A stretch of DNA of 64,000 nt from Gekko japonicus. Taxonomy: Eukaryota. Each line of letters starts with the position of its first letter. Positions within the stretch are counted from its first letter, which is position 1. Where the stretch lies: contig NW_015167545.1 of assembly GCF_001447785.1 (NCBI RefSeq), positions 693,555 to 757,554 on the forward strand, written 5' to 3'. Below, piece by piece: positions 11,619 through 62,650 of the stretch. The notes below the pieces were generated by a model that saw only the letters and a list, made by a program, of their open reading frames with translations, searched no databases and was not told the origin of the DNA. Both the position numbers and the translations under genes were made by a program.

Positions 11619-12859
11619 CCAAACATGCACCAATCTTGTACCTGCCACAAATGTACAGTAACTGATTTATAGAAAATCAATAGCTGTTACCAATAATTGG
11701 CTTGTGACTTGTGACAATTCCGAACCATAAGCACAAACAAATGTGAGCAAAGGAAAAAACTTTGAAAGTGAAGGAGCAGTAAAACGTTAAAGATGAAGCG
11801 AGGAAGGTGTTTCACTCTAGGCCCTAGCCTGGTAAATTGTGAATAATGTGGCTGAAGAGGCCCCTTCCAGCAAGCCCCTGCTGACCCCTTGGCTCTTAGC
11901 ACCTCCTAGGTAATCCCACCGCCCCCAGGGGGTGGTACCGCCGCTTTGGAAACTTCTGCCCTAGAATGTTCACAAACATTTTACTGCTCAGGGGAAAGGT
12001 TGCAGCAGCAGGATGTTGACAGTTTCTATGAGGGAAGGGAAAGGACAGCATGCATTGGATGAATCCCAATCCCAGTTATCTGATCTACCAAATGGAGGAA
12101 AAGTTGCCTGCAGCAAATGGGCAAGGAAGCAATTTGATGGATTTGCATACTTGATCATGGATCTCAAATTCAAGTCGGTAACAACCCTGTTTGTACATCC
12201 AAATGAAATCTAGCTCACAGAGCTCTGTTGCCTGCATAGCATGTCCACCATTGTAAATGGACAAGTGCCATGGGTGGTTCTTGAAGTCATGCCCTAGTGG
12301 AACTTATTCCTCATCCTATACGTATTGCAAGGCAGTGTGATGTAGTGGTTAGAGGGTTGGGCTAGGACTAGGAGACCCTGGTGCCCACTTGCCATGAAAC
12401 AAACCGGGCGAATTTGGGCCGGTCATTCTCTCTAAGCATAACCTACTTCACAGGGTTGTTGTGAGGATAAAATGGAGGAAAGAACCACATGCACCTTCCA
12501 GGGCTCCTTGAAGGGAGGGCAGGATAAAAATGCACTCGATGCATAAATATAAATATGCAGTCTGGTTGCGGCTTCTTATGGAAGCACTCTTCCTTTGTTC
12601 AGAGGCCCTTTCCATATTTACAAGTTCCTAATCAAAAATACCAGTTCTGGGGATGATCGCTGGCTTTTACTATTTAGAATTTTTTAAAAAGTAACCTCAT
12701 GTCTCCACTTCCAAAACCTATAAGGTAGTTCTTCTCAGAATTTAAAAAAACCAGTATCGGAAGGATATTTAAAACAATATAATAACACCAGTCACCATCA
12801 TAAAACATCAGCTTGAGTGATGCTGACACTAAGCCTTCATGTCCAGCTATAAATAAATC

Positions 12860-13256
12860 CAGGGCTTTTTTTGTAGAAAAAGCCCAGCAGGAACTCATTA
12901 GCATAATAGGCCACACCCAACAGCAGAAACTCATTAGCATATTAGGCCACACCCTTGACAGCACAGCTCGTTAGCACATTAGGCCACACCCCTATGTTAC
13001 CAGAAGTGTGGTCATCCAGCCACACCCACCTTTTGCTTCTTATTCTGTTTACCTTGTTTGTTTTCAAAACCCAGGGCTTTTTTTTGAGCAGGAACTCCTT
13101 CGCATGTTAAGCCACACACCCCCTAATATAGCCAATCCTAATGAGTTCCTGCTGTTGGGTGTGGCCTATTATGCTAATGAGTTCCTGCTGGGTGTGGCCA
13201 ACTTGGGAGCCAGCCGGAACTCCGTTCCTGTGCGTTCCTGCCCCAAAATAGCCCTG
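12860..13256 (+). mobile_element. hAT-type MITE, family A (CAGGGCT TIRs, ACTCATTAGCAT/GGCCACACCC subterminal repeats)
   Basis: Termini cagggcttttt...aaatagccctg. Perfect 8-bp TSD aataaatc. Confidence 0.9.
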
Positions 13257-16525: not shown

Positions 16526-17263
16526 TGGCTTTTGAAAAACCCTTTTATTTCACAGGATTTGTTTCTGTGCTGCTTAGATGATAGTTTCATTTCTGGGAGT
16601 CTTCCTTGTCCATATTCTTTTTTTCTGGGATAGAACAAAACTTAATAATGTGCTGGGGGGGATAGTAGCTTGGGATATTTTTCATTACTCAGAAGTAGCT
16701 CTCAAGAAAGAAGCGGTTGGAGACCCCTGCTATAGGTGATTTTCAATCAATTGGGTTATTCACTTCCTCTCCCACCCCCTATCCTGGCTAGAGAGTGGAG
16801 GGAAAACCACTTTGAAATGGGGTGCTTTTTTGTGGGGGCATTACTGGATTGCAGAACGCACCTTTTGGTAACCGGGGAGTTTGGTTGACCTTGGAGTAAG
16901 GAGACGGTTGTCCTGGATGGAAGATCGTTTCTCTTTAGGGGGTTCATTAAATAGGAAGCCTTAGATTGGCTCTTTACGTCAATGGTCAGCTCCAGGAAGG
17001 GTTAACTGTGCAGGAGAGCCAACCTTGACTGATTGCCCATCTCTGTGCTGCCCCTACAGCCAGCAAATCAGCGAAGGCAGTGTCCACCCTCCACCGCCAC
17101 CCACTTCTGCTCAAAAGGAGCTGTTCCCCGATAGCTCGGTCTCTACACATAGCTCTCTCTTGGGCACAGAGGGCCTTGTAAAATGTCTCAACACAGGGTG
17201 CAGGGTGGCGATCTCCAAAACAACCTGATCTTGCTCTCGCACAACAGGAAGGTCCCCTCCAGA

Positions 17264-17403
17264 ATGTCCTCCCTCATGGAGATGAAGGAAATCTTCCAAA
17301 ACGCGGACGCCGTTTGCTTTGACGTGGACAGCACGGTCATCCGAGAGGAAGGCATCGACGAGTTGGCCAAATTCTGTGGCGTTGGAGACGCAGTGGCGGA
17401 AAT
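17264..17403 (+). CDS. PSPH: Phosphoserine phosphatase, coding exon 1
   Basis: [46 protein letters not shown](M) with HAD motif I DVDST. Acceptor acaacag ends at 17247, donor GTACGT at 17404, 140 coding nt. Confidence 0.95.
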
Positions 17404-18696: not shown

Positions 18697-18831
18697 GACG
18701 CGCAGAGCTATGGGCGGTTCAGTAACGTTCAAGGCAGCTTTAACGGCACGGCTGGGCCTCATCCGCCCATCCTACGAGCAGGTGCAGAAGCTAATATCAG
18801 AGCATCCACCTCAGTTAACTCCAGGAATAAG
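18697..18831 (+). CDS. PSPH: Phosphoserine phosphatase, coding exon 2
   Basis: TRRAMGGSVTFKAALTARLGLIRPSYEQVQKLISEHPPQLTPGI(R). tttag acceptor, GTAAG donor, 135 nt, phase-compatible. Confidence 0.96.
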
Positions 18832-20142
18832 GTAAGATGCCTTAGAACTAGATCAAGATGGGTAGCCATGTTCATCTGTCCGTAGCAGTAGAAAAGAGCA
18901 AGAGTCCAGGAGCACCTTAGCAACTAGCACAATTTGTGGCAGGGGATGAGCTTTTGTGAGTCACTGCTCACTGATGTCTGAGTGACTCACGAAAGCTCCT
19001 CCCCTTCCACAAATTGTGTTAGTCTTTCAGATGCTACTGGACTCTTGCTCTTTCTTATTGCCTTAGGACTGGTTGCATTGTCCCAGGATGACGAGACATG
19101 GGAATCAGTGCCATATCGATTTGTTCATATTAATCATGAAGGCTTGGCAGTAGGTTGAGGAACATAAAACACAGGCCGTGTTGAAACAGTGCCCCCCACC
19201 ATTGAAAGTAGAAGCAGGATGGCTTAATTTTCAGCGGAGAAAATCTGTATCTGTGTCTCCTTTTCATTATCTTCCTTTGGCGTATTTACAAAGCGAAAAG
19301 ATCCAAGGAATAGTTTCAAGGGTTGGATTTCAGTATAAAAAGCAATTGGGTAGCAGTGTGGGGAAAGCGCAGAAGCCGCTGCACCAGGATCTAATACAAT
19401 TTCAACTATTTGGGCCATAGGGGCTCCCATTAAGTTGGGCCCCAGTTTGCTAGGCCTCATGGGTTCCAGAGAAAACCTTTGAAACACAGAACTGGAAGGA
19501 ACCGAAAGGGAAGCTAGTCCAGCCGCCCCAAAGCCAGGCCTGTAGCCAGGATTCTGTGGCTTGTGGGGCAAAAATGTTGCTGGTGGGGCTGCCATTATTT
19601 GTCATAATGAAGGGGGTGGCACGCACCCCTCTCCCTCCCCTCCTGCAAGATTTAAAGGGCCCTCCAGCTGATTGATGGGCCATGCGCTCCCTGCCAATCA
19701 GCTGAGGGCCCTTTACATCTTGCAGGAGGGGAGGGAGAGGGGCACGTCCCACCCCCAGCTTCTTCTCAAAAGCATTTAAAGGATCCCTTTAAATGCTTTT
19801 GGGGAGAAGGGGACCGGCCCTTTAAGGAAGCCAGCCCAAGGCAGAACTGTCCATACATCGAGAGAGTGCGCTTGTTTAGCTGGCCCATTTACACACCTGA
19901 ACCTGTGGTCCCTTTCATTTAATGAGCCCCCTTCTGTGTCCATTGCTGTATATGAACCCACAACATTTTCTGACTCTTTATTGTGCTTCTTATAAGTATG
20001 TGATAACGGCATTATGGAGGCGGGCGGGGGGAGGAAGCAGAAGATAGTCCCTTTCAGTGCAGTGACTGCATAAGCTCTTCTTCCAGGCTTGACATTTACC
20101 TTGACGGGCGGCCTTGGCCATTGTCTGTTCTTTTCCTCAAAG

Positions 20143-20288
20143 GGAACTGGTCAGCCGACTCCATCAGCGAGGCGTCCAGGTCTTCCTAGTCTCTGGAGGG
20201 TTCCAGAGCATCGTCGATCATGTTGCTATGCAGCTGAACATCCCAACAGCCAATGTATATGCCAATCGATTGAAGTTCTACTTTAATG
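20143..20288 (+). CDS. PSPH: Phosphoserine phosphatase, coding exon 3
   Basis: ELVSRLHQRGVQVFLVSGGFQSIVDHVAMQLNIPTANVYANRLKFYFN(G) with HAD motif II SGG. 146 nt, GTAAG donor. Confidence 0.96.
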
Positions 20289-20737
20289 GTAAGAGTGCCT
20301 GGATAGCAAATCAGGCTGTTGGATTCTCTTGGGAGTAATAAATATGGACCCCAGGAAACCAGGCTGACTGTGAATTTTTAATCAACAGCTATTACAGATT
20401 AATCTGTACTAAAGGCACAGCAAGAAAGAGTCACATGTGTAGGCTTTTTACATATAGGACCAGATCAAAATGTCCACCTTCCCCAAGATTCTTTAATTAT
20501 TCCCCCCTGCTCAGCCAAGTCCTTTCTCCTCGGTCCAGAACTTAACCCACAACTGCTCCTTTGATGTGTCCTTTGTTTGCCTGTAATCCTCAGTCAACAA
20601 GCAGAGATTAGTTTCACATTGGGAACTCTTGCCTGAAAGTTGCACACCATCCCGTTTTCCATACTCCCGCCCCCCCCAGAAACTGATAAACAGAGCTTAG
20701 CAACTTTTATGATGGCAAGAGAAAAAGAATTCTGAAA

Positions 20738-20938
20738 GAGCCCTGACCTGGATAGTCCAGGCAAGACCAATCTCGTCAGAACTTGGTAGCTAAGCAGGGT
20801 TGTCTTTGGCAACTACTTGGATGGGAGACCTCCTTGGAATACCAAATGTCAGGAGACGGGGGCAGGCTTTATTCAGCCACCTCTCTGAATATCCTCCAAG
20901 CCCCCAGGAGGTGTCAGTCACCAGAGGTGACTTCCAGG
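20738..20938 (+). mobile_element. 5S rRNA-derived SINE
   Basis: aatctcgtcagaacttggtagctaagcaggg...tacttggatgggagacc resembles the 5S box A/C region. Confidence 0.7.
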
Positions 20939-21325
20939 CAGGGCTATTTTTGGGCAGGAACGCACAGGAACGGAGTTCCGGCTGGCTCCCAAGTTGGCCA
21001 CGCCCAGCAGGAACTCATTAGCATAATAGGCCACACCCAACAGCAGGAACTCATTAGGATTGGCTACATTAGGGGTGTGTGTCCTAACATGCAAAGGAGT
21101 TCCTGCTACAAAAAGGCAACAAACAAGGTAAACAGAACAACAAACAAGGTAAACAGAATAAGAAGCAAAAGGTGGGTGTGGCTGGATAACCACACTTCTG
21201 GTAACATGGGGGTGCGGCCTAATGTGCTAATGAGCTGTGCTGTCAGGGGTGTGGCCCAATATGTGAATGAGTTCCTGTTGTTGGGTGTGGCCTATTATGC
21301 TAATGAGTTCCTGCTGGGCTTTTTC
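20939..21325 (-). mobile_element. hAT-type MITE, family A (one end truncated)
   Basis: Near-identical reverse complement of the 12860 and 22784 copies. Confidence 0.88.
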
Positions 21326-21349
21326 CAGTTCCAGTATGGAAGCAGCAGC

Positions 21350-21830
21350 TGAAAAAGCCGTCCTATGTATCCCACAAAACTCACCTCAAATAAGGTTAGT
21401 TCCTGCAGGAAGGCGGCATCACTGAAGCTCTGAGCCACTCTGGGGCTTTAGAGGACAAGGCCAGCACCTTGAACTGAGCCCGGAAGCCGGTTGGCAGCCA
21501 GGGCAACTGATATATCACTGGCGTGGTGAATCATGACCATCAGTGAATACTCTTCCTGCCTTGCTTTGCGCCAGGTGAGGCTTCCAAACTAGCTTTAGGG
21601 CAGCCCCATGTAGAGTGCAGTACAGTAATCTAGCCTAGATAGTTATCAAAGCATGCGTAACCGTGATCAGGTCCATTTCCTCCAGGAATGGCCAGTGCTG
21701 GCATATCAGAATACAGTAGTTAAAAGCACTCCTCAATCACCTGCTTATCCAGGCAGAAAGAAGCATCCAGAAGTATCCCCAAGCCGGGCACTTGCTCCCC
21801 CAGACACCTAGAACAAGCCAAACACCAATT
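21350..21830 (-). mobile_element. L2 LINE ORF2 fragment, degraded
   Basis: Minus strand gives WLPTGFRAQFKVL, resembling the L2 LHWLP...FK motif. Confidence 0.6.
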
Positions 21831-22577
21831 TCCACACCAGCTTTAGAAAAGAGCAAGAGTCCAGTATCACCTTAAACACTAACAACATCTGGGCAGGGGA
21901 TGAGCTTTCGTGAGTCACTGCTCACTTCTTCAGGTCAAGTATCCGAAGAAGTGAGCAGTGACACACAAAACGTCAGGCCCTTCCACAAATATCATTAGTC
22001 TTTTGTGCTATTAAACCCAATGTAATAACATGGCTACCCCTCTGGATCCATACCAGTTTCATTAAGATTAATTTGTTTTATTTATTAAGCTTTATTAAGA
22101 TTCATTTATTAAGATTCATTTTTTCCCACCCATATCTGGTCTTTCATTGGTTCCAGAGACTGAGAGACTGAGAGACTGAGTCAGAAAATACTCAGAGTTG
22201 GAGAGAGGTCGTGGAGTATATGAGCTAAATGGCCATCTCCAATATCACCATGCTTCAGGGGTCGAAAAGAGCTGAGGACGTTCCAGGACGTTCTAAGTTT
22301 ACTGAGCCAGGGCTCAAATCCAGCCAACGCTTAGCCCCAGAGCTTGCTTTGTAATCAACCATGTTTGTGATGTAAAACTTGCTTCTGACCATGGGCAGAG
22401 TATCTGAGTATTCATGGCAAGGAGACTGAGTTCTCCATCAAAGAAGATATTATCTAATGCTTGCGTCTTTATGCACTAAGCACTGTTCTGAAACCCTTGC
22501 AGCAATCCACAGCAGCTCAGAGACACTGCACAGCTGCCATGACTGAATTTCTCTTTGCGGCGTGCATCTCTCTAGGG

Positions 22578-23301
22578 CAGTGGTGGTGAACCTATGGCAT
22601 GGGTGCCAGAGGTGGCACTCAGAGCACTCTCTGTGGGCACGTGTGCCATCGCCCTAGCCAGGGCCAGACCATCATTAAAGTGTCGAATTCTCTGCCAAAT
22701 AATTTTAAGTAAATGAAAGCATTTGGGATTGCTTTCCTTACTTTGTTTGGATCATCTTAAATTAACGTATAAGTGTTTTTCCCCACGGCTCTTTTTGTAG
22801 AAAAAACCCATCAGGAACTCATTAGCATAATTGGCCACACCCAACAGCAGAAACTCATTAGCATATTAGGCCACACCCCTGACAGCACAGCTCATTAGCA
22901 CATTAGGCCGCACCCCCATGTTACCAGAAGTGTGGTCATCCAGCCACACCCACCTTTTGCTTCTTATTCTGTTTACCTTGTTTGTGGTCAAAACCCAGGG
23001 CCTTTTTTTGGAGCAGGAACTCCTTTGCATGTTAGGCCACACACCCCTAATGTAGCCAGTCCTAATGAGTTTCTGCTGTTGGGTGTGGCCTATTATGCTA
23101 ATGAGTTCCTGCTGGGCATGGCCAACTCGGGAGCCAGCCGGAACTCCGTTCCTGTGCGTTCCTGCCCAAAAATAGCCCCGTTTTTTTCTAAAGTAAAACC
23201 TCAGTATTCAGGTTAAATCTCCGTGTTGGCACTTTGTGATAAATAAGTGGGTTTTGGGTTGCAGTTTGGGCACTCGGTCTCTAAAAGGTTCGCCATCACT
23301 G
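22578..23301 (+). mobile_element. hAT-type non-autonomous DNA transposon inserted at the acceptor of PSPH coding exon 4
   Basis: TIRs cagtggtggtgaacct (22578) and aggttcgccatcactg (ending 23301). Perfect 8-bp TSD ctctaggg at 22570-22577 and 23302-23309. Confidence 0.92.
22784..23180 (+). mobile_element. hAT-type MITE, family A, nested in the 22578-23301 element
   Basis: Colinear with the 12860 copy. Slightly mutated termini, imperfect T-rich TSD. Confidence 0.88.
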
Positions 23302-23307
23302 CTCTAG

Positions 23308-23456
23308 GGGAATATGCAGGCTTTGATGAGACGCAGCCGACAGCCGAGTCGGGCGGCAAAGGAAAAGTAATCAGCTACCTCAAGGAGCAGTTTCAGTTTA
23401 AGAAGGTGGTCATGATTGGAGATGGAGCGACAGACATGGAAGCCTGCCCCCCTGCG
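23308..23456 (+). CDS. PSPH: Phosphoserine phosphatase, coding exon 4
   Basis: (G)EYAGFDETQPTAESGGKGKVISYLKEQFQFKKVVMIGDGATDMEACPPA with the HAD motif III Lys and motif IV GDGATD. 149 nt. The acceptor AG at 23306-23307 lies in the TSD copy. GTGAGT donor. Confidence 0.95.
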
Positions 23457-23973
23457 GTGAGTATTCCAGTTTGTTTATTACAGGGTTCTCCATGGAGGTC
23501 AAGTAGATGCAGATGCCAGTGAACCTGCTGGCTGAAGACTCGGATACAGTTCTAGCATTAAAAAAAAAAATCATCACGTGTGTGTGGGGGCCCGAATTCG
23601 AATCATGACCACAGTGTGGATGGAGGCGAAATTGAAGCCTTTCCCACCTGCGCCATTTTCCTATCCTGAAAAGGACCTGGGGAGCTGCCAGGTGAAGAAG
23701 GCACGGGGAGGGGAGTTTAAACTTAATGCTGTAGTCCTGGTACAAATCAGGTTTCTGCCTATCCTGTTTTTGAAAATAATAAATAATAAAAATAATACTG
23801 AGAGTTAGGTTCATGGAATTCCAAGCATCACGTATAGCTGAACCTGTTGGGCTCTGAACCTGGTTCTTCCCAGTCCAACTATTCCTGGCTATCCACCTGA
23901 CCACACTGGCTCACAGAACCTATCCAAAAGTGGACTCCCTAATAGCTGGCTCTTTCTGGCATCAGACAGCACT

Positions 23974-24311
23974 TGTTGTTGTTGTTCAGTCGCACAGTCG
24001 AGTCCGACTCTTCGCGACCCCATGGACCAGCTCCCGCCAGGCCCTCCTGTCTTCCGCCGTCCTTTGAAGTTTGCTCAGTTTCATGTTCGTTGCATCTATG
24101 ACACTGTCTAACCATCTCATCCTTTGCCTTCCCCGTCTTCTTTGACCTTCAATCTTTCCCAGCATCAGGGTCTTCTCCAGGGAGTGCTCCCTTCTCATTT
24201 GGTGGCCAAAGTATTTGAGCTTCAGTTTCATTATCTGGCCTTCCAGGGAACAGTCAGGGTTGATTTCTTTTAGGACTGACTGATTTGACCTTCTTGCCGT
24301 CCAAGGGACTC
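23974..24311 (-). mobile_element. RTE-BovB LINE 3' fragment
   Basis: Minus strand KLKLKYFGHQMRREHSLEKTLMLGKIEGQRRRGRQRMRWLDSV, (CAA)n tail, 12-bp TSD tcagacagcact. Confidence 0.92.
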
Positions 24312-24630
24312 TCAGACAGCACTAGACTTGAGCAAAGCCATGCTTCCACAAAAAGAGAACGGACATCTCATCCATGTCTTCCACTGGGAGACAGAATTGC
24401 CCATTCATCAGTATCGTTCTCCCTGACAGTTATCTGCTCAGTCTGTATTTAGTGTGCTGTAAGCAGATAGCAAAAATCCTACAGAAAGGGGATAAGTCAA
24501 GCAGCTCCAGATGACTCAGGTCAGAGAGCCATGTTGCATATTGCTGTTAAAGGCTTTTTCTCTAGCCGCTGCCAGTCTCTCCCAGAGAAGCGATGCCTTC
24601 CAAACCCCTAACAGGACAATCAGCTAGACC

Positions 24631-24851
24631 TTGGGTTGCCAACCTCCAGGTGTGGCCTGGAGATCTCCCGCTATTATAGGCGATCCCCAGGTGATAGAGA
24701 TCAGTTCTCCTGGAGAAAATGGCTGCTCTAGAGGGTGGACTCCATGGCACTGTACCCTGCTGAGGTCATGTCCTACCCCAAACTCCATCCTCTCCAGGCT
24801 CCACCCCCTCGAAAGCTCTAGGAATTTCCCAACCTGGATCTGGCCACCTTA
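24631..24851 (-). mobile_element. hAT-type MITE (TAGGGTTGCCA-like TIRs)
   Basis: Reverse-complement sibling of the 13324 copy. Perfect TSD gctagacc. Confidence 0.82.
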
Positions 24852-26767
24852 GCTAGACCCACTGAGCACAAGCAAAATCAATCCATTGTGTTATCTGAAA
24901 GAAAATTTTTATCGACGTCAGCAGGACCATCCAGTGTGGCGACACCTGAGGAAGTGGGAGGAAATCCCCTAAGATCACACGCAAGAGTGAAATGCAGTAG
25001 CGAAAACCCTGGGCAGTTCCGTAGCCTGCAGGCCCAATGCTTGCCCCTGGTTAATGATTTCGCCTATCGGTTAATGATTATTTCTGATATCTCCCAGGGG
25101 AGGTGAACGAGGCCAAAACGAATATGTCAGGGAGGCCAGCCAAGTCAGGAGCGGGGATTAAGAAACAAACTCCTTCTGGAGTTCATGGTTGAACAAGGAT
25201 ACGTGCCAGCAAGAACAGGAGGGCTTCTGTACTCAAGATGTTTTTCTTCCCTACAAAAAGAATACCTGCATATAACTGGTGCACCATAAACATGTGTCAA
25301 TCACAGTACAATCTGTCCTGCCTTGATTAAGCACAGTCGGGAGCTTCTGAGTCTCCCAAGCTCTTGTAACTGGGTAAAAACAAGCACGTGTATTCAATTG
25401 AGGCAGAGGCAAGGGTCTCTTCTAAAAGGGCACATTCTGAGCATGTCTGCTTAAGCTGGCCTAACTCCCAGGCTTCTCTCCCCCCACCACCCTTCCTGAA
25501 ACCTGGGAACTGTAGTTCTGTGACAGGGGATGGCCTAATGGGGGTCAGTCATAAAATATGAAACAGCAGACTTTTGAACCTTGCAGTTGTGCAATTCTCA
25601 GGGTTCCTTGGGAGACGCAAGGGCAGCTAAACTGGATTAATTACATTTGTATTACATTGGTTCTTGGTTACATTTGAATGTTATATAATGACATTATATA
25701 ATTACATTATATGTTATATAACTACATTTTATTCTGTCCTCCTTGTATTTCGTGGCTGCTTGGCCCTGCTGTTTATTTTATTTTTCTAACGTTGCCATCC
25801 ACCATTACTTTGCATCTGACAAAGCGGGCACAAAAATATATGCTGGAATAAAATCTTGTTAGTTTGAAAGTGCTCTAGACCCCTTTCATTTTTGCTCCCG
25901 CAGAATTTGATTTAGGCTTACAGCCACTGAAAAGTCTAAATAAGGAAGGGCATTTGCCAAAGCCTGGCAGAATGATTCTTCTATATACAAAGACTGCTTG
26001 GTTTATTTTATGTATTTAAAAAATGTGCAGATACTGCCTGTGCCCTTTTCGCCTGGCAGCTCCCCAGGTCCTTTTCAGGATAGGACAATGGCGCAGGCAG
26101 AAAAGGCTTCAATCTCACCTCCATCCACACTGTGGTCATGATCCGAATTCAGGGCCCCAGACACGTGATGGTTTTTTTTAAAAAAATGCTTGAACATCTG
26201 TATCTGTGGGCACTTACTAGATGCAACTTAAACCAAGGAAGATGTACTTTTGCTAGAAAAGAGATTTATAGAAATATCAAGAAACAAGGGTAACACAGTC
26301 AAAACTGCTGCGTCTGCACGAACGATGCGAGGAATAGATTATGTTGCACCAGGAAAACGTTACTTTTGAGAATGCACACAATGGAATTTGGAATGACTCT
26401 TTGATCATGGGCATGATCCTTGCAAACCAGTTCCCAAAACCCCATCATGCTTTCTGGAAACATTTGCACGAATCCACTTGATTAGTTAATGTAGCTCATT
26501 AACAGCTAGTTCATTGTCTCTGAATAGTCTTTTGATACTCAAACTCCAGATCACTCTCATTATTTGCAGATCCCTGGCAAAACGTAAGCGACAGCCCATA
26601 TTCTGGAGCTCTTCCAAAGGGGCAGAGGATGCTTCTACATCCAGCCACCCTGCTCTGCACCCCCCTCCACCCCCACCCCTGTGCCAGAATCAGGGTCTTT
26701 CACCCCTGACTTGGAATCCTGAGATCCATTGCAGAAATTACCATGCTGTCCCTTTCTGCTTCTGCAG

Positions 26768-26878
26768 GACTGTTTCATTGGATTTGGAGGCAACGTAGTG
26801 CGGAAACAAGTAAAAGAAAAGGCCAAATGGTACATCACTCACTTCGATGAGCTGCTGAAAGAACTGGAGGAGCGATAA
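26768..26878 (+). CDS. PSPH: Phosphoserine phosphatase, coding exon 5 (last)
   Basis: DCFIGFGGNVVRKQVKEKAKWYITHFDELLKELEER*. ttctgcag acceptor. The spliced CDS totals 681 nt (226 aa). Candidate ATTAAA signal at 26941. Confidence 0.96.
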   Translation, partial: DCFIGFGGNVVRKQVKEKAKWYITHFDELLKELEER

Positions 26879-28487
26879 ATTATAGCAAAAACTAGTCTTA
26901 TTTTATTAACATTTGTCATACATAGATGTATAGCAATGCAATTAAACATGTTCTTATTGTTGTTTGCAAATAGAGGCGTTTGGGCTTTTCATTTATGGCA
27001 GGCCCCCATCCTTGGAAGTGGTGTTTGTTTAAAGTGCGGTGAATGTCACTCACAAGGTGTTGCAGTGGAAAATGGCTCCATCACACACATACCATCCTTC
27101 ATGGTTTTAGATTCACTGGTATGGTACAGCCAGGAATCTCTACACATAGCAGTGCACTAGGCTACACGCAGCAGCAGATTCTTGGTACCGTGTGTGCCAG
27201 CAAGGTTATAGAGTTACATGGGGCCACTTCAAACTAATACAAATCCTTTATTCAAGGAACTACATTCTAGATAGTGCAGGCTGAGAGGCAGGAAAAGAAT
27301 CTAACTAGCTAGATGGATGCAGATGGAGAATGCCTGTCCTGCATCTATGATGGTAACGATAGATATCGTGCCTCCTTCTTTGTGTGTGCGAGAGAGAAGT
27401 GTCAAGCCAGAAAGAAGGAAGTCTCATCCCTAAGATTAGCATTCTACTTCAAAGGATAGTATCAGATAGCAGGAAGGAAAGGATGATCTACGCGTCCTGA
27501 CCTCTCTGTCTCTAAATCTATGGTGCTGTCTCTCTGAAGGCTGAGGCAGGGGACAGTGTATGCTCCTCCACTTCCACCACTTGGATGGGGAAGCCTTGCC
27601 TCTGTTGAAGCCATTGGGATGAGGATGGAGGCAGGATTTTACCAGGAAAGTACCATTTGCGCCCATTTCTAAAAACAAAAGTCTGAGGCTTCAGCCACCT
27701 TCTCCAAAGCCGCACTGCCTGATCTCGAAGCCTTGCCCATTAATCTCAGATGGAAAGGAATGGGCAGTCATTACCCCACAGTAGCCAAAATGTTCTCTGC
27801 ACATGCTCAAAGGGGCTGGTTTAATTAATACTTATAAGCTGCAATTCTGTGGCCTAATGTTTAAACATTAGATTCCCTTGCTGAGTCCTGGCTTAGATTG
27901 ACTCCTCCTCCTTCTGCTGGTATTTAATACTCTGCAAAAGCAGCCCACTGGAGGTTGCTTTATGAGGAAAGGGAATGGCATGGGTGGTGGGAGAGACAGA
28001 AGAATAAAAATGTTAACTGTTTCCTCCCTGGACTTTCCCTGCTAGGAAAAGCCACCCCAGCTGCTGGGAAAACATACTAGGGACCATTTTTCCGCCTCAA
28101 CAGGGGTAAAAGTAGCTCAGGGATGGCTTTTTCCAGCAAGAAACAGCGGGGGAGGGAAGTTTCCTCCTCTCCTGGCACCATTCTTTTCCTCGTTGAAGCA
28201 ATCCCCAACAGCTACATCTGCAAAAGAAGAAGATGTTGTTCAAAATAAACACAGAATAAACTGTATGTTGTGTACCAAGGGAGACTGCTCACACGGTTGG
28301 GCTCACACGTGGCCATGCGGACAGGTTAAGCTTCACATCCAAAGATGCAAAATGGTGGGAGCGGGGATAAGCAAGAGCTGGAACAGAGAAGTAAGGAGAT
28401 GCAAAGATGCTCAGTGGGACACAGGAGGCAGGAAGAGGGAAGGGACAGGCGATAACAGCGGATGGGAGGCAGGGGAAACAGGAGAGG

Positions 28488-28849
28488 CAGGGCTATTTCT
28501 GGGCAGGAACGCACAGGAACAGAGTTCCGGCTGGCTCCCAAGTTGACCACGCCCACCAGGAACTCATTAGCATAATAGGCCACACCCAATAGCAGAAACT
28601 CATTAGGATTGGCTACAATTAGGGGTGTGTGGCCTAACATGCAAAGGAGCTCCTGCCACAACAGAATAAGAAGCAAAAGGTGGGTGTGGCTAGATGACTA
28701 TACTTCTGGTAACATGGGGGTGCAGCCTAATATGCTAATGAGCTGTGCTCTCATGGGCGTGGCCTAATATGCTAATGTGTTTCTGTTGCTGGGTGTGGCC
28801 TATTATGCTAATGAGTTCCTGCTGGGCTTTTTCTACAAAAAAAGCCCTA
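28488..28849 (-). mobile_element. hAT-type MITE, family A
   Basis: Family A sequence with perfect 8-bp TSD aggagagg. Confidence 0.9.
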
Positions 28850-29578: not shown

Positions 29579-30637
29579 TGGTTCAAGGGATGCCATAGAA
29601 AGCTCTCTGGATTTCTGGATGTTGCTCTTAAGCAAAAATCTTTTGGCACCTGGAAACTGTAAAGCTGCTGTAACTCGGGTTAGAAGAAAGTGAACATTCC
29701 TGTGCAGTGAAAGCCTTTTACAGTAGCATCCTCTTGCCGAATCCTAGTGCTCTGCTGAAACAATAGCAGTACTGTGCGGGAGCCAAGGAACTTGAGACAT
29801 GCCAGAGTTTCTCTTAGGGAGAATGTAAAAGGGGGCCCTTTTCTACAGGAACCAAAGCATTGTTGAGTTGTGGGGCTGAAATCAGGACTCCGTTTTAACC
29901 AGTTCTAACTCAGAGTGCTGGTGGTGCTCACCCTCGGAAGACGTGAAGTACAAATAATGATCCAAGAGCATTTCTTTCACTGCTAAGTGCGCCACAACCC
30001 GCCACAAGGATTGAAACAAGCAGAGCAGGGGGAACAGAAATATCTTACGCTCCCCAAAGACTACGACCCAATGAAACTAATTGGTGGCAGGCTCAGAGGA
30101 GGAACGAATTAGCATGCAATTCCTAGTCACAAGATGTGGCAAAGTGGGCTGCTTTAGGTGGCTTCAAAAGGATTTGAGAAATTAATAAAAGGAATTAGTA
30201 TAATTAATACATGCCAAAAGGGAGCCAACCATCCCCCAGGGAGCATTCCTCCAAGCTCAGGAGCCCCCAACGGAAGAGCCACCTAAGCTGGAGGAAAGCT
30301 TCAAACTTGGCTCAGTGGACTGGTAGGACGGGTAGGACCCACCCCGTTATCAATGCTATAAGTGAAAATAGAAATGTCCTTGCCTCTGCTGAGCTTACCA
30401 TCTCGAAAGCGGGAGAGACAACAGGACAGGAAAGAATGAAAACGAGAAATGAATTTACACATAATAAATTTGGTTACAGACAGGCCTATTAAGAGCTTAA
30501 GCCAAGGTCTCAGAGAAAAATGGATTTTGAAGAGGGATGTGAAGGAAGACAGAGAGGTGACACTCCAGACATGTCTAAGCCGAACAGAACCTCCACATCC
30601 AGAGGCAGCATACCTCTGAGCACCTGATGCTGAGGAC

Positions 30638-30990
30638 CAGGGCTTTTTTTGTAGAAAAAGTCCAGCAGGAACTCATTAGCATATTAGGCCACACCCCTGA
30701 CTGTACCACTCATTAGCATATTAGGCCGCATTCCCATGTTACCAGAAGTGTGGTCATCCAGCCATGCCCACCTTTTGCTTCTTATTCTGTTTACCTTGTT
30801 TGTTGTCAAAACCCAGGGCTTTTTTTGTAGCAGGAACTCCTTTGCATGTTAGGCCACACACCCCTAATGTAGCTAATCCTAATGAGTTCCTGCTGTTGGG
30901 TGTGGCCTATTATGCTAATGAGTTCCTGCTGGGCGTGGCCAACTTGGGAGCCAGCCGGAACTCCGTTCCTGTGCGTTCCTGCCCACCCAA
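30638..30990 (+). mobile_element. hAT-type MITE, family A (right terminus eroded)
   Basis: Colinear with the 12860 copy. Confidence 0.86.
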
Positions 30991-31205: not shown

Positions 31206-31572
31206 CAGGGCTATTTTGGGGCAGGAACGCACAGGAACGGAGTTCCGGCTGGCTCCCGAGTTGGCCACGCCCAGCAGGAACTCATTAGCATAATAGGCCC
31301 AACAGCAGAAACTCATTAGGGTTGGCTACATTAGGGGTGTGTGGCCTAACATGCAAAGGAGTGTTTGACAACAAACAAGGTAAACAGAATAAGAAGCAAA
31401 AGGTGGGTGTGGCTGGATAACCACACTTCTGGTAACATGGGGGTGCGGCCTAATGTGCCAATGAGCTGTGCTGTCAGGGGTGTGGCCTAATATGCTAATG
31501 AGTTTCTGCTGTTGGGTGTGGCCTATTATGCTAATGAGTTCCTGCTGGGCTTTTTCTACAAAAAGAGCCCTG
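31206..31572 (-). mobile_element. hAT-type MITE, family A
   Basis: Both termini present, flanking direct repeat gaatgag. Confidence 0.88.
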
Positions 31573-33283
31573 GAATGAGTACTGTGTAATCCAGCTGGTC
31601 CCCCATAGGAAGTCAATTACAGCCCTGTGGGCAGATGTCTGGGACTCCAACCATGAGAAAGCATACTTTGATGACAACCGTCTGCTATTGCAACATTTGA
31701 ATCAGGCCTGTCTAAGCCAGCAAGGCCTTTCTTATGCTGTCTTGCTTAATCACTGAATCTGAATTTATAAGTTTTTAAAACGTCTCTATTTTCATTCAGG
31801 AGTTATAAAGGCAAAGGTGTAGACTGCACATTTCCCCTTATAACTCTGCAAGGAAAAGTGCTAGAGACTTCTTTTAAAAACATGAAAACTGGAAAGTAGT
31901 AGATCATGGTAACAGATCATTATACTGTTCTGACACTATAGCGATTTAATGATTCCTGATTTTTTTTTTATTTAAAAGCCATCTGGTGAAAGGGGGAAAT
32001 GCTGGCCACAAGGGGCTGTGGCAAGGAAAGTACAAGAGGTGGTGTGTTAATGCTCCAGTGAAGTAATGAAAGCTATACAGAGAACTGTCAGTGTGTGGAA
32101 ACAGCCAAAGGCTTCAGGTCAGAGAGTACACTTGCAGCCAAGTTAATCGATTCCACCCAACTAAAACAACAGGCTAGACAGCCAGAAGATGTTCAGGAGC
32201 ACACATGAAACTGTTGCTCCCCTTGCAGTTCTGAGAATTGTTTTTCTGAAATTCACAATGATATGTTACTCTAATTTCCCAGTAGTTCTCCTCCCACTGG
32301 TACAGGAAAATCCAGTGTCATTGTGCAAGGTGGCCATTTTTCCTAATTCTTCACTACTACCTCTGTTGCTCTCATGGAATGCCCAGAAACTAGATTCTGG
32401 CTGGCCCCAAATGTTCTGATGGGTGGAACATCCAAATGGCACCTAGATGCACAACACACACAGACTGTGATACCACCAGCCTGTCTTACAGCACTTTTGA
32501 GTTACTGAGATAATACATATCAAATGCTTTGAGCACTTGAAATGTGCTTATGCAGTGCTAAGTATTATTTCTAATAATAATAATAATAATAATGTCTGAA
32601 GCAGAAGACTTAGCCATTCCAAAACTGTGCTGCAAAGTCCATGTTTGGTTTGCCGAGCCTCCATCCAAACCCTCTCAAAATAAATTGGGACTTTTGAGTT
32701 TTAATTGCCGTTCGGAAGGGGGGCCTGCAAGGGGATCTGTGGGGAATTTGCAAGACAACCAGCACCAGTTTGCTGGTCTGGAACATTTTAAAATATAACA
32801 ACTGATTTTTTTAGAGATGGGAAATGGTGTTGGAGATGCGAAATGAGGAAGTAAGAGAGTTCATTAGGCCTGCATGGGAAAATTCCATGACTGACAGGCA
32901 AAACAAACATCCAGCCGTTGGAGTCAGAGTAGAATGTGCTTGGAATACATTTCAGAGGTATTGTTTGCACATGGGGAATTGTCAGGTGAGGTTACTTAAA
33001 CTCTGCCTTTATTCCCAGAGAGCCATATTCACATCCCAGCTATCCCCATGTTCAAAAGGGCTTCCATTTGGCTCAGCTAACTGGCTCAAAACAAAATAAA
33101 ACAAAGACAAGACACTGGAGGTTAGGTTTGTTGGTTTCTTCCCAATGGGAGATTGGGAAACTGACCATACCATACGCCCTTCTAAGTTCACTAAAGTCAA
33201 TGGGCTTAGAAGGGTGTTACTGCTTAGGAGAGCATCACAAGTTTTCTTTCATGTGCTATCCCTATGTATATCTGACAGCTAAA

Positions 33284-62289: not shown

Positions 62290-62650
62290 AAAGATCCCAC
62301 AGGGCCCTTATGTCACGCGGAAGCATGTTCCACCAGGCTGGGGCCAGGGCAGAAAAAGCCCTGGTCAAGGCTTAACGCAGGGCTATTTTTGGGCAGGAAC
62401 GCACAGGAACAGAGTTCCGGCTGGCTTCAGAGTTGGCCACGGCCACTAAAGCCAAAACCTCTGTGTGCGTCACTACAGAGGGAAGGCCTGAAGAGCGACA
62501 CCTCCCCAGTGACTCCGAGGCAGGCAGGCTCTCCAGGCCACATATGGGGAGAGGCGGTTCCTTAGGTATGTCGGTCCCAGGCCACGCAAGGCTCTGAAGG
62601 CCAGGATTCTTGGTAGTCGCAGCCATTTGGCACTGGGTGACCCTGAGGTC
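62290..62650 (-). mobile_element. L2 LINE fragment containing a partial family A MITE end (62378-62445)
   Basis: Minus strand ILAFRALRGLGPTYLRNRLSPY, an L2 ORF2 C-terminal motif. Confidence 0.7.

What the first reader, a model, noticed from the sequence alone, without database searches (positions are those of the whole stretch)
22541..23309. hAT transposon inserted 2 nt inside a PSPH exon: TSD-duplicated acceptor rescues the gene and the original becomes a poison site
Seen: the 724-bp element 22578-23301 is flanked by the TSD CTCTAG|GG, which is the last 6 intron nt plus the first 2 exon nt. The original pyrimidine-rich acceptor (gaatttctctttgcggcgtgcatctctctag, AG ending 22575) now leads into GG CAG TGG TGG TGA, a stop at 22587-22589 that would remove HAD motifs III and IV and should trigger NMD. 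The intact exon must use the duplicate AG at 23306-23307, whose branch point and pyrimidine tract come from the transposon end (tctctaaaaggttcgccatcactgctctag). The downstream CDS is intact, which suggests the new site works. Inference: a natural acceptor replacement by a DNA transposon in a core metabolic gene, related to intron gain by TSD duplication, and possibly a lineage-specific AS-NMD switch on serine synthesis.
Basis: partly seen in the sequence, partly recalled or inferred. Interest (0 to 1): 0.85.

Follow-up and report, generated by a model that had tools for sequence, protein, structure and literature searches.

The report
Transposon end replaces PSPH splice acceptor
A small DNA transposon landed on a splice site of the serine-synthesis gene PSPH and copied the site's AG behind itself; RNA from the same species is spliced to that copy, so the gene likely works normally, and no use of the stranded old site as a regulatory switch was seen.

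Summary
The sequence observation is exact. The 8-bp duplication CTCTAGGG flanks 22578-23301, and the old AG leads to a stop at 22587-22589. The element is two nested transposons: a 319-bp hAT-type MITE with a 397-bp MITE inside. A DNA contig from a related species joins 22569 directly to 23302, which is the empty site. RNA joins donor 20288 to the new acceptor 23308: one contig at depth 2714, plus 1 read in each of two raw runs. Intron retention is about 0.3% or less. No joint to the old AG was among the 15 joints listed (567 hidden), so the 'poison switch' is unsupported but not excluded; NMD inhibition was not tested. The rescue follows from the family's target preference: 28 of 46 duplications carry YTAG, there are about 4,900 copies, and roughly 3-6 acceptor hits are expected by chance. 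A partial screen found no second case. Closest known cases are the dog merle PMEL SINE and introner AG co-option. The scan earlier noted hAT MITEs spliced out in Euglena, by a different mechanism. Verdict: real and neat, a new member of a known kind.

The parts
20143..20288 (+). PSPH upstream coding exon; donor ATG|GTAAGA at 20288 (phase 1)
   Evidence: joint in RNA
20939..21325 (-). Second, inverted copy of the inner MITE (91.7% over 385 nt). With 22800-23178 it brackets the old AG.
22539..22575 (+). Ancestral intron end: branch-point-like CTGAA (A at 22546, inferred), pyrimidine tract, old AG 22574-22575, now stranded
   Evidence: X15 contig runs 22176-22569 straight into 23302. Read-through resembles unnamed proteins P0001/P0002.
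22570..22577 (+). Left TSD copy CTCTAGGG (6 intron nt + 2 exon nt of the original site)
22578..22775 (+). Left part of the 319-bp outer hAT-type MITE (TIR 22578-22593). Holds the in-frame stop TGA 22587-22589 and a weak donor-like TAA|GTAAAT at 22708.
22784..23180 (.). Nested 397-bp second MITE (ends CAGGGCT/AGCCCTG in most copies). Its 8-bp TSD at 22776-22783 / 23181-23188 has 2 mismatches.
23181..23301 (+). Right part of the outer MITE (TIR 23286-23301). Supplies the inferred branch point CTAAA (A at 23284) and the pyrimidine tract of the new acceptor.
23302..23309 (+). Right TSD copy; its AG at 23306-23307 is the acceptor in use
23308..23456 (+). Intact 149-nt PSPH exon (human residues 141-190), donor GCG|GTGAGT
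26768..26878 (+). Last coding exon of PSPH; its junction lies downstream of any old-AG stop, the condition for NMD

Best explanation
A 319-bp DNA-transposon MITE inserted 2 nt inside a PSPH exon and duplicated the acceptor AG in its 8-bp target site; RNA of the same species is spliced to the duplicate AG at 23306-23307, likely using a branch point and pyrimidines from the unchanged transposon end, while the old AG is likely silent or used only at noise level. The whole insertion is removed with the existing intron and the mRNA is unchanged. Shown: TSD, empty site in a relative, junction 20288>23308, low intron retention. Inferred: (a) Exon definition picks the new AG, because it keeps the 149-nt exon with its donor, whereas the old AG would define an 881-nt exon (476 nt before the second MITE arrived). 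(b) The family's nnYTAGRn target preference makes AG duplication automatic whenever it hits a TAG acceptor, and the allele survived because the MITE end happened to be an adequate 3' splice signal. (c) The allele is old and probably fixed, and arose near or after the split from organism D.
For: RNA: joint 20287>23307 (GT..AG at cut +1) in an unbroken 299-nt X1 contig at depth 2714.3, plus 1 read each in raw runs X21 and X22. X1 intron depth is 0.9-7.25 in this intron against 10-32 (and one piece at 192) in the next., DNA: X15 record 11 places 22176-22569 (record 23-451) directly against 23302-23588 (record 452-741). TSD positions 4-5 are T in 45 of 46 and A in 46 of 46; YTAG core in 28 of 46. 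The window copy differs from the column majority at 13 of 317 outer and 8 of 397 inner positions, with no difference in the last 34 nt before the TSD (chance 0.24), so no adaptation of the end is evident. X1 differs from the window at 9 of 2,943 intron bases, X15 at 231 of 3,507; another PSPH acceptor (18696) also has CTAAA, at -23; the upstream exon has 1 match in the genome, so there is no sign of a back-up paralogue.
Against: The spliced junction is the same with or without the insertion, and no laid RNA record was shown to span 22577|22578 or 23301|23302. That the RNA donors carry the insertion is inferred from age, not observed. Raw-read depth was tiny (2 junction reads; 0 of 2 bounds old-AG use only below 78%). 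Contigs drop rare variants, and 567 joints were not shown. The branch point was not mapped. The new site has a short pyrimidine run (longest 4) and an AG at 23286-23287 between the putative branch point and the acceptor. Copy divergences are from copies selected as best hits to the window, so they are biased.
Confidence: 0.85

Rival explanations
1. The old AG is used in a regulated way as an AS-NMD switch on serine synthesis, either as an 881-nt extended exon or as a 133-nt poison cassette 22576-22708 ending at the MITE's TAA|GTAAAT. Both carry the stop at 22587.
For: The old branch-point-like motif, tract and AG are intact. The stop lies upstream of later junctions and would remove 85 residues. 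A donor-like site gives a normal-sized cassette. NMD would hide the isoform in ordinary RNA-seq (established knowledge).
Against: No joint into 22576 or out of 22708 among the 15 listed joints, whose lowest X1 depth is about 103 (roughly 4% of the main junction, if the list is ranked by depth). The cryptic donor matches 6 of 9 consensus positions against 7 for the two flanking donors. There is no conservation evidence. A search for PSPH + poison exon + NMD listed only 3 general reviews (listing only).
Confidence: 0.07
2. The old AG is silenced mainly by RNA structure. The inverted inner-MITE copies at 20939-21325 and 22800-23178 would pair and loop out 21326-22799, which contains the old AG.
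For: The copies are 91.7% identical over 385 nt in inverted orientation, with a predicted duplex of -702 kcal/mol.
Against: The family has about 7 long copies in this 64-kb window, so such pairs are common by chance. The inner MITE arrived after the outer one, and the gene had to splice before that. No structural or editing evidence could be separated from multi-mapping reads.
Confidence: 0.12
3. The insertion is a polymorphic, mildly harmful allele, and the observed junction comes from insertion-free alleles.
For: Presence of the insertion in the RNA donors was not observed directly.
Against: The outer and nested copies have drifted 4.1% and 2.0% from their families and the nested TSD has 2 mismatches, while X1 differs from the window by only 0.3%. 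The allele is much older than within-species variation.
Confidence: 0.05
4. Assembly artefact.
For: The assembly is fragmented (191,500 contigs) and the element is highly repetitive.
Against: The TSD is perfect and matches the family's target motif, the copy has private substitutions and a nested insertion with its own TSD, and the relative shows exactly one TSD copy.
Confidence: 0.01

Closest known systems
Dog merle allele: SINEC_Cf at the PMEL intron 10/exon 11 boundary (PMC6091007, PMC7349775; passages read)
   Same: Transposon at an intron-exon boundary, flanked by a TSD that contains the splice acceptor. The exon-adjacent acceptor is used normally in cryptic merles, with a competing upstream acceptor.
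   Different: Merle is a polymorphic retroposon whose oligo(dT) length tunes use of a cryptic acceptor inside the SINE, giving an in-frame 52-aa insertion. Here it is a nested DNA-transposon pair, apparently old and fixed; the competing site is the original AG and would give a stop; and no competing use was seen.
Introner elements / TSD-assisted intron gain (PMC11282704; bioRxiv 10.1101/2022.06.06.494994; passages read)
   Same: A MITE-like element with TIRs whose 3' AG is co-opted from the TSD, leaving the mRNA unchanged.
   Different: Introners make new introns and bring or co-opt the 5' site, family-wide. Here the donor is the old upstream donor, intron number is unchanged, and only one case was found.
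Alu/SINE insertions at 3' splice sites: NF1 (PMC3219598) and canine FAM161A (PMC3976383); passages read
   Same: The insertion separates the exon from its branch point and pyrimidine tract.
   Different: These cause exon skipping and disease. Here the element end substitutes for the lost signals.
Maize Ac/Ds elements spliced from transcripts (recalled, not read)
   Same: hAT-family element removed by splicing with the help of the duplicated target.
   Different: Ds usually supplies donor sites and splicing is often imprecise. Here removal is precise and uses the host donor.

Membership tests
hAT superfamily (non-autonomous MITE), outer element | 8-bp target site duplication | tested here: met
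   Exact in the window; 46 of 54 full-length copies with at most 1 mismatch. Feature stated in PMC3942097 passage.
hAT superfamily (non-autonomous MITE), outer element | Short TIRs (10-25 bp) | tested here: met
   16-bp TIRs with 2 mismatches
hAT superfamily (non-autonomous MITE), outer element | High copy number, uniform short length, no coding capacity | tested here: met
   9,751 exact TIR ends; most copies 319 bp
hAT superfamily (non-autonomous MITE), outer element | Autonomous partner encoding a hAT transposase with the same TIRs | not tested
   No search made
Buster group of hAT | TA at target positions 4-5 (motif recalled; the paper read says only that Ac and Buster differ in target choice) | tested here: met
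   T in 45 of 46, A in 46 of 46
Buster group of hAT | Transposase phylogeny | not tested
   No transposase identified
Introner | 3' AG co-opted from the TSD with mRNA unchanged | tested here: met
Introner | Insertion creates a new intron | tested here: not met
   The junction uses the existing donor 20288; the relative has the same intron without the element
Introner | Repeated, family-wide splicing at coding sites | tested here: inconclusive
   No second case among 72 evaluable copies of 84 examined that follow a pyrimidine tract. Sensitivity is low, and about 4,900 copies exist.
Poison exon / AS-NMD switch | Alternative site yields a premature stop upstream of a later junction | tested here: met
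   (sequence logic only)
Poison exon / AS-NMD switch | The unproductive isoform is actually made | tested here: inconclusive
   Not among the 15 joints shown; 567 hidden; contigs drop minor forms; 2 raw junction reads
Poison exon / AS-NMD switch | Rises on NMD inhibition and is regulated or conserved | not testable with these tools
   No NMD-inhibited run and no second insertion-bearing species was available

The most novel reading that the evidence does not exclude
The stranded original acceptor, alone or with the MITE's own donor at 22708 as a 133-nt poison cassette, is used at a low, regulated level that NMD hides. A single DNA-transposon insertion would then have both rebuilt a constitutive acceptor and created a lineage-specific AS-NMD control point on serine synthesis, through a TAG-targeting hAT family that duplicates any TAG acceptor it hits.
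Probability: 0.08. Interest if true: 0.75.

Novelty: new member of a known kind. Interest (0 to 1): 0.4.

Why it matters
It is a clean natural case, with an empty-site outgroup and RNA support, of a DNA transposon end becoming the working 3' splice signal of a constitutive exon in a core metabolic gene. The better-known vertebrate insertions at acceptors (NF1, FAM161A, merle) disturb splicing. It shows how a target preference for YTAG makes such hits survivable, and it offers a ready minigene for testing exon definition between two identical AG contexts. It does not reveal a new mechanism unless regulated use of the old AG is shown.

Tried and rejected
1. Recurrence screen. Pattern Y10-TAG-RN-TIR gave 29 hits; 24 of 29 had a right end; 0 of 29 downstream ORFs hit Pfam at E<=0.05. 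Pattern Y14 with <=2 mismatches gave 152 hits, of which 100 were listed. I fetched 55, chosen by eye as new places with an intact TAG (one CAG); 48 of 55 had a right end; 1 of 80 ORFs had a weak hit (E 0.02, judged chance). Sensitivity is low: the PSPH exon itself scores only E 0.009 in Pfam, and the PSPH site matches neither pattern.
2. The best look-alike, L172 (long pyrimidine tract, 111-nt open frame to a GTATGT donor), had no homologue. It lies inside an intron of a uromodulin/GP2-like gene whose flanking exons join without room for it, so it was rejected. A deeper profile search for it was still queued and was not collected.
3. Reading the 724 bp as one element: rejected.
4. Post-insertion adaptation of the new acceptor: none seen.
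5. Skipping of the 149-nt exon (20288>26768): not among the listed joints.
7. No MaxEnt-type splice scoring was available; only pyrimidine and consensus counts were made.
8. Literature searches listed no report of this locus, or of a vertebrate hAT MITE replacing a constitutive acceptor. The library lacks most subscription papers, most hits were seen only as listings, and no supplements were read. 'Gecko' was my guess, not a tool result.
9. The scan's own notes had nothing near this place or like this sequence.

Full report
Observation. The 8-mer CTCTAGGG occurs at 22570-22577 and 23302-23309 and flanks a 724-bp insert with 16-bp TIRs. The gene is PSPH. tblastn of snake, bird and turtle proteins places coding exons at about 17183-17403, 18697-18831, 20143-20288, 23308-23456 and from 26768, and exon 23310-23456 matches human PSPH 142-190 at E 1e-25. 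The upstream exon has 1 match in the genome. With the phase-1 donor at 20288, the old AG (22574-22575) reads G-Q-W-W-stop with TGA at 22587-22589, losing 85 residues. These include the lysine and GDGATD motifs (motif III/IV labels recalled). The duplicate AG (23306-23307) gives the conserved FYFNG-EYAGF junction.

What the element is. It is two elements. The outer parts match a family whose copies are mostly 319 bp, and the TIR pattern has 9,751 exact matches against 2 for the control, so there are roughly 4,900 copies or more. Of 54 full-length copies, 46 have 8-bp TSDs with at most 1 mismatch. Among these 46, position 4 is T in 45, position 5 is A in 46, the core is YTAG in 28 and YTAGG in 12. 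A second 397-bp TIR element sits at 22784-23180, with a degenerate 8-bp TSD. The window copies differ from their column majorities at 13 of 317 and 8 of 397 positions. These comparisons use copies picked as best hits to the window, so they are biased.

Empty site. In run X15 (organism D, guessed DNA; its contigs run unspliced from exon into intron), one 750-nt contig aligns to 22176-22569 and then, with no letters between, to 23302-23588. X15 differs from the window at 231 of 3,507 aligned bases (6.6%, 8 listed pieces). Independently, the in-frame read-through of the old intron end resembles the N-termini of two unnamed genomic read-through proteins, P0001 and P0002, which is weak further support that 22539-22577 is the ancestral intron end.

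RNA. I laid 4 of the 24 listed runs on 20050-27000. X1 (organism A; library not on record, but spliced; 9 differences in 2,943 intron bases) holds one unbroken 299-nt contig joining 20288 to 23308 (GT..AG) at depth 2714.3; the next junction has depth 4974.1. Raw runs X21 and X22 each have 1 read on this junction and 8 on the next. X1 intron depth is 0.9-7.25 in the affected intron (about 0.3% of the junction or less) and 10-32 in the next, with one piece at 192. No joint into 22576, out of 22708, or skipping the exon is among the 15 joints shown; 567 were not shown. Limits: contigs drop rare variants, raw depth is too low to bound minor use, NMD would deplete the isoform, and the junction looks the same from an insertion-free allele. 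Presence of the insertion in the RNA donors is inferred from its age (4% and 2% drift against 0.3% within species).

Mechanism. Shown: insertion at CTCTAG|GG, duplication of the AG, and splicing to the downstream copy. Inferred: the MITE end offers a branch-point-like CTAAA at -24 and 13 of 18 pyrimidines at -20..-3, against CTGAA at -30 and 12 of 18 for the old site and 13-15 of 18 for the other PSPH acceptors. The last 34 nt equal the family majority, so the signal came ready-made. With similar local strength, exon definition (established knowledge) should favour the AG that keeps a 149-nt exon over one that makes 881 nt, or 476 nt before the nested insertion. An inverted copy of the inner MITE at 20939-21325 could also loop out the old AG, but such pairs are common here.

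Is it special? With about 4,900 copies, 28 of 46 targets containing YTAG, and recalled figures for acceptor number and TAG share, about 3-6 hits on real acceptors are expected before selection. One surviving case is therefore unsurprising. A screen of copies that follow a pyrimidine tract (84 examined, 72 evaluable) found no second coding acceptor. The best look-alike, L172, lies inside an intron of a uromodulin-like gene and was rejected. The screen is partial and insensitive.

Known parallels (passages read, no full texts or supplements). In dog merle, a SINE at the PMEL intron 10/exon 11 boundary is flanked by a 15-bp TSD that contains the acceptor, and splicing is normal when the tail is short (PMC7349775, PMC6091007). 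Introners co-opt the 3' AG from their TSD (PMC11282704 and bioRxiv 2022.06.06.494994). Alu and SINE insertions at acceptors usually cause skipping (PMC3219598, PMC3976383). The hAT features are from PMC3942097. Maize Ds splicing is recalled only. This case works like an introner at the 3' end but is not one, since no intron was gained.

Verdict. Acceptor replacement is real and supported by an outgroup and by RNA (0.85). A regulated poison switch is unsupported but untested where it matters (about 0.07). New member of a known kind; interest 0.4.

Noticed in passing
window 20742-20854 (+): 5S rRNA-like sequence above the Rfam gathering score (42.9 bits) inside the same PSPH intron; probably the head of a 5S-derived SINE or a pseudogene.
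   Followed up: no
window 26237-26795: An X1 contig at depth 191.8 (about 4% of the last junction) covers the 3' part of the last PSPH intron into the last exon. No AG lies right before 26237, so it is partial retention or an unknown upstream start.
   Followed up: partly
window 23246-23247: An AG in the MITE end 60 nt upstream of the used acceptor is in frame and stop-free; it would add 20 residues. No use seen.
   Followed up: partly
window 12859-13254, 20939-21325, 28490-28846, 30637-30985, 31208-31573, 62380-62445: Further copies of the 397-bp inner MITE family in both orientations; the family is very dense.
   Followed up: no
L172 / L176-L177 (G000:C8960:631000-650800): Uromodulin/GP2-like gene (D8C, ZP-N, ZP-C) on the minus strand. 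It has the 319-bp MITE behind a long intronic pyrimidine tract, followed by a 111-nt open frame and a GTATGT donor, a possible cryptic exon.
   Followed up: partly
L176:1838-5055 (+): LTR-retroelement-like stretch (protease, RNase H, integrase Pfam hits) next to that gene; observed only.
   Followed up: no
L129, L166 (and L098, L118, L142 with other lengths): Other copies of the outer MITE measure 724-725 bp or 640-660 bp, which suggests repeated nesting of second elements inside this family; not analysed.
   Followed up: no
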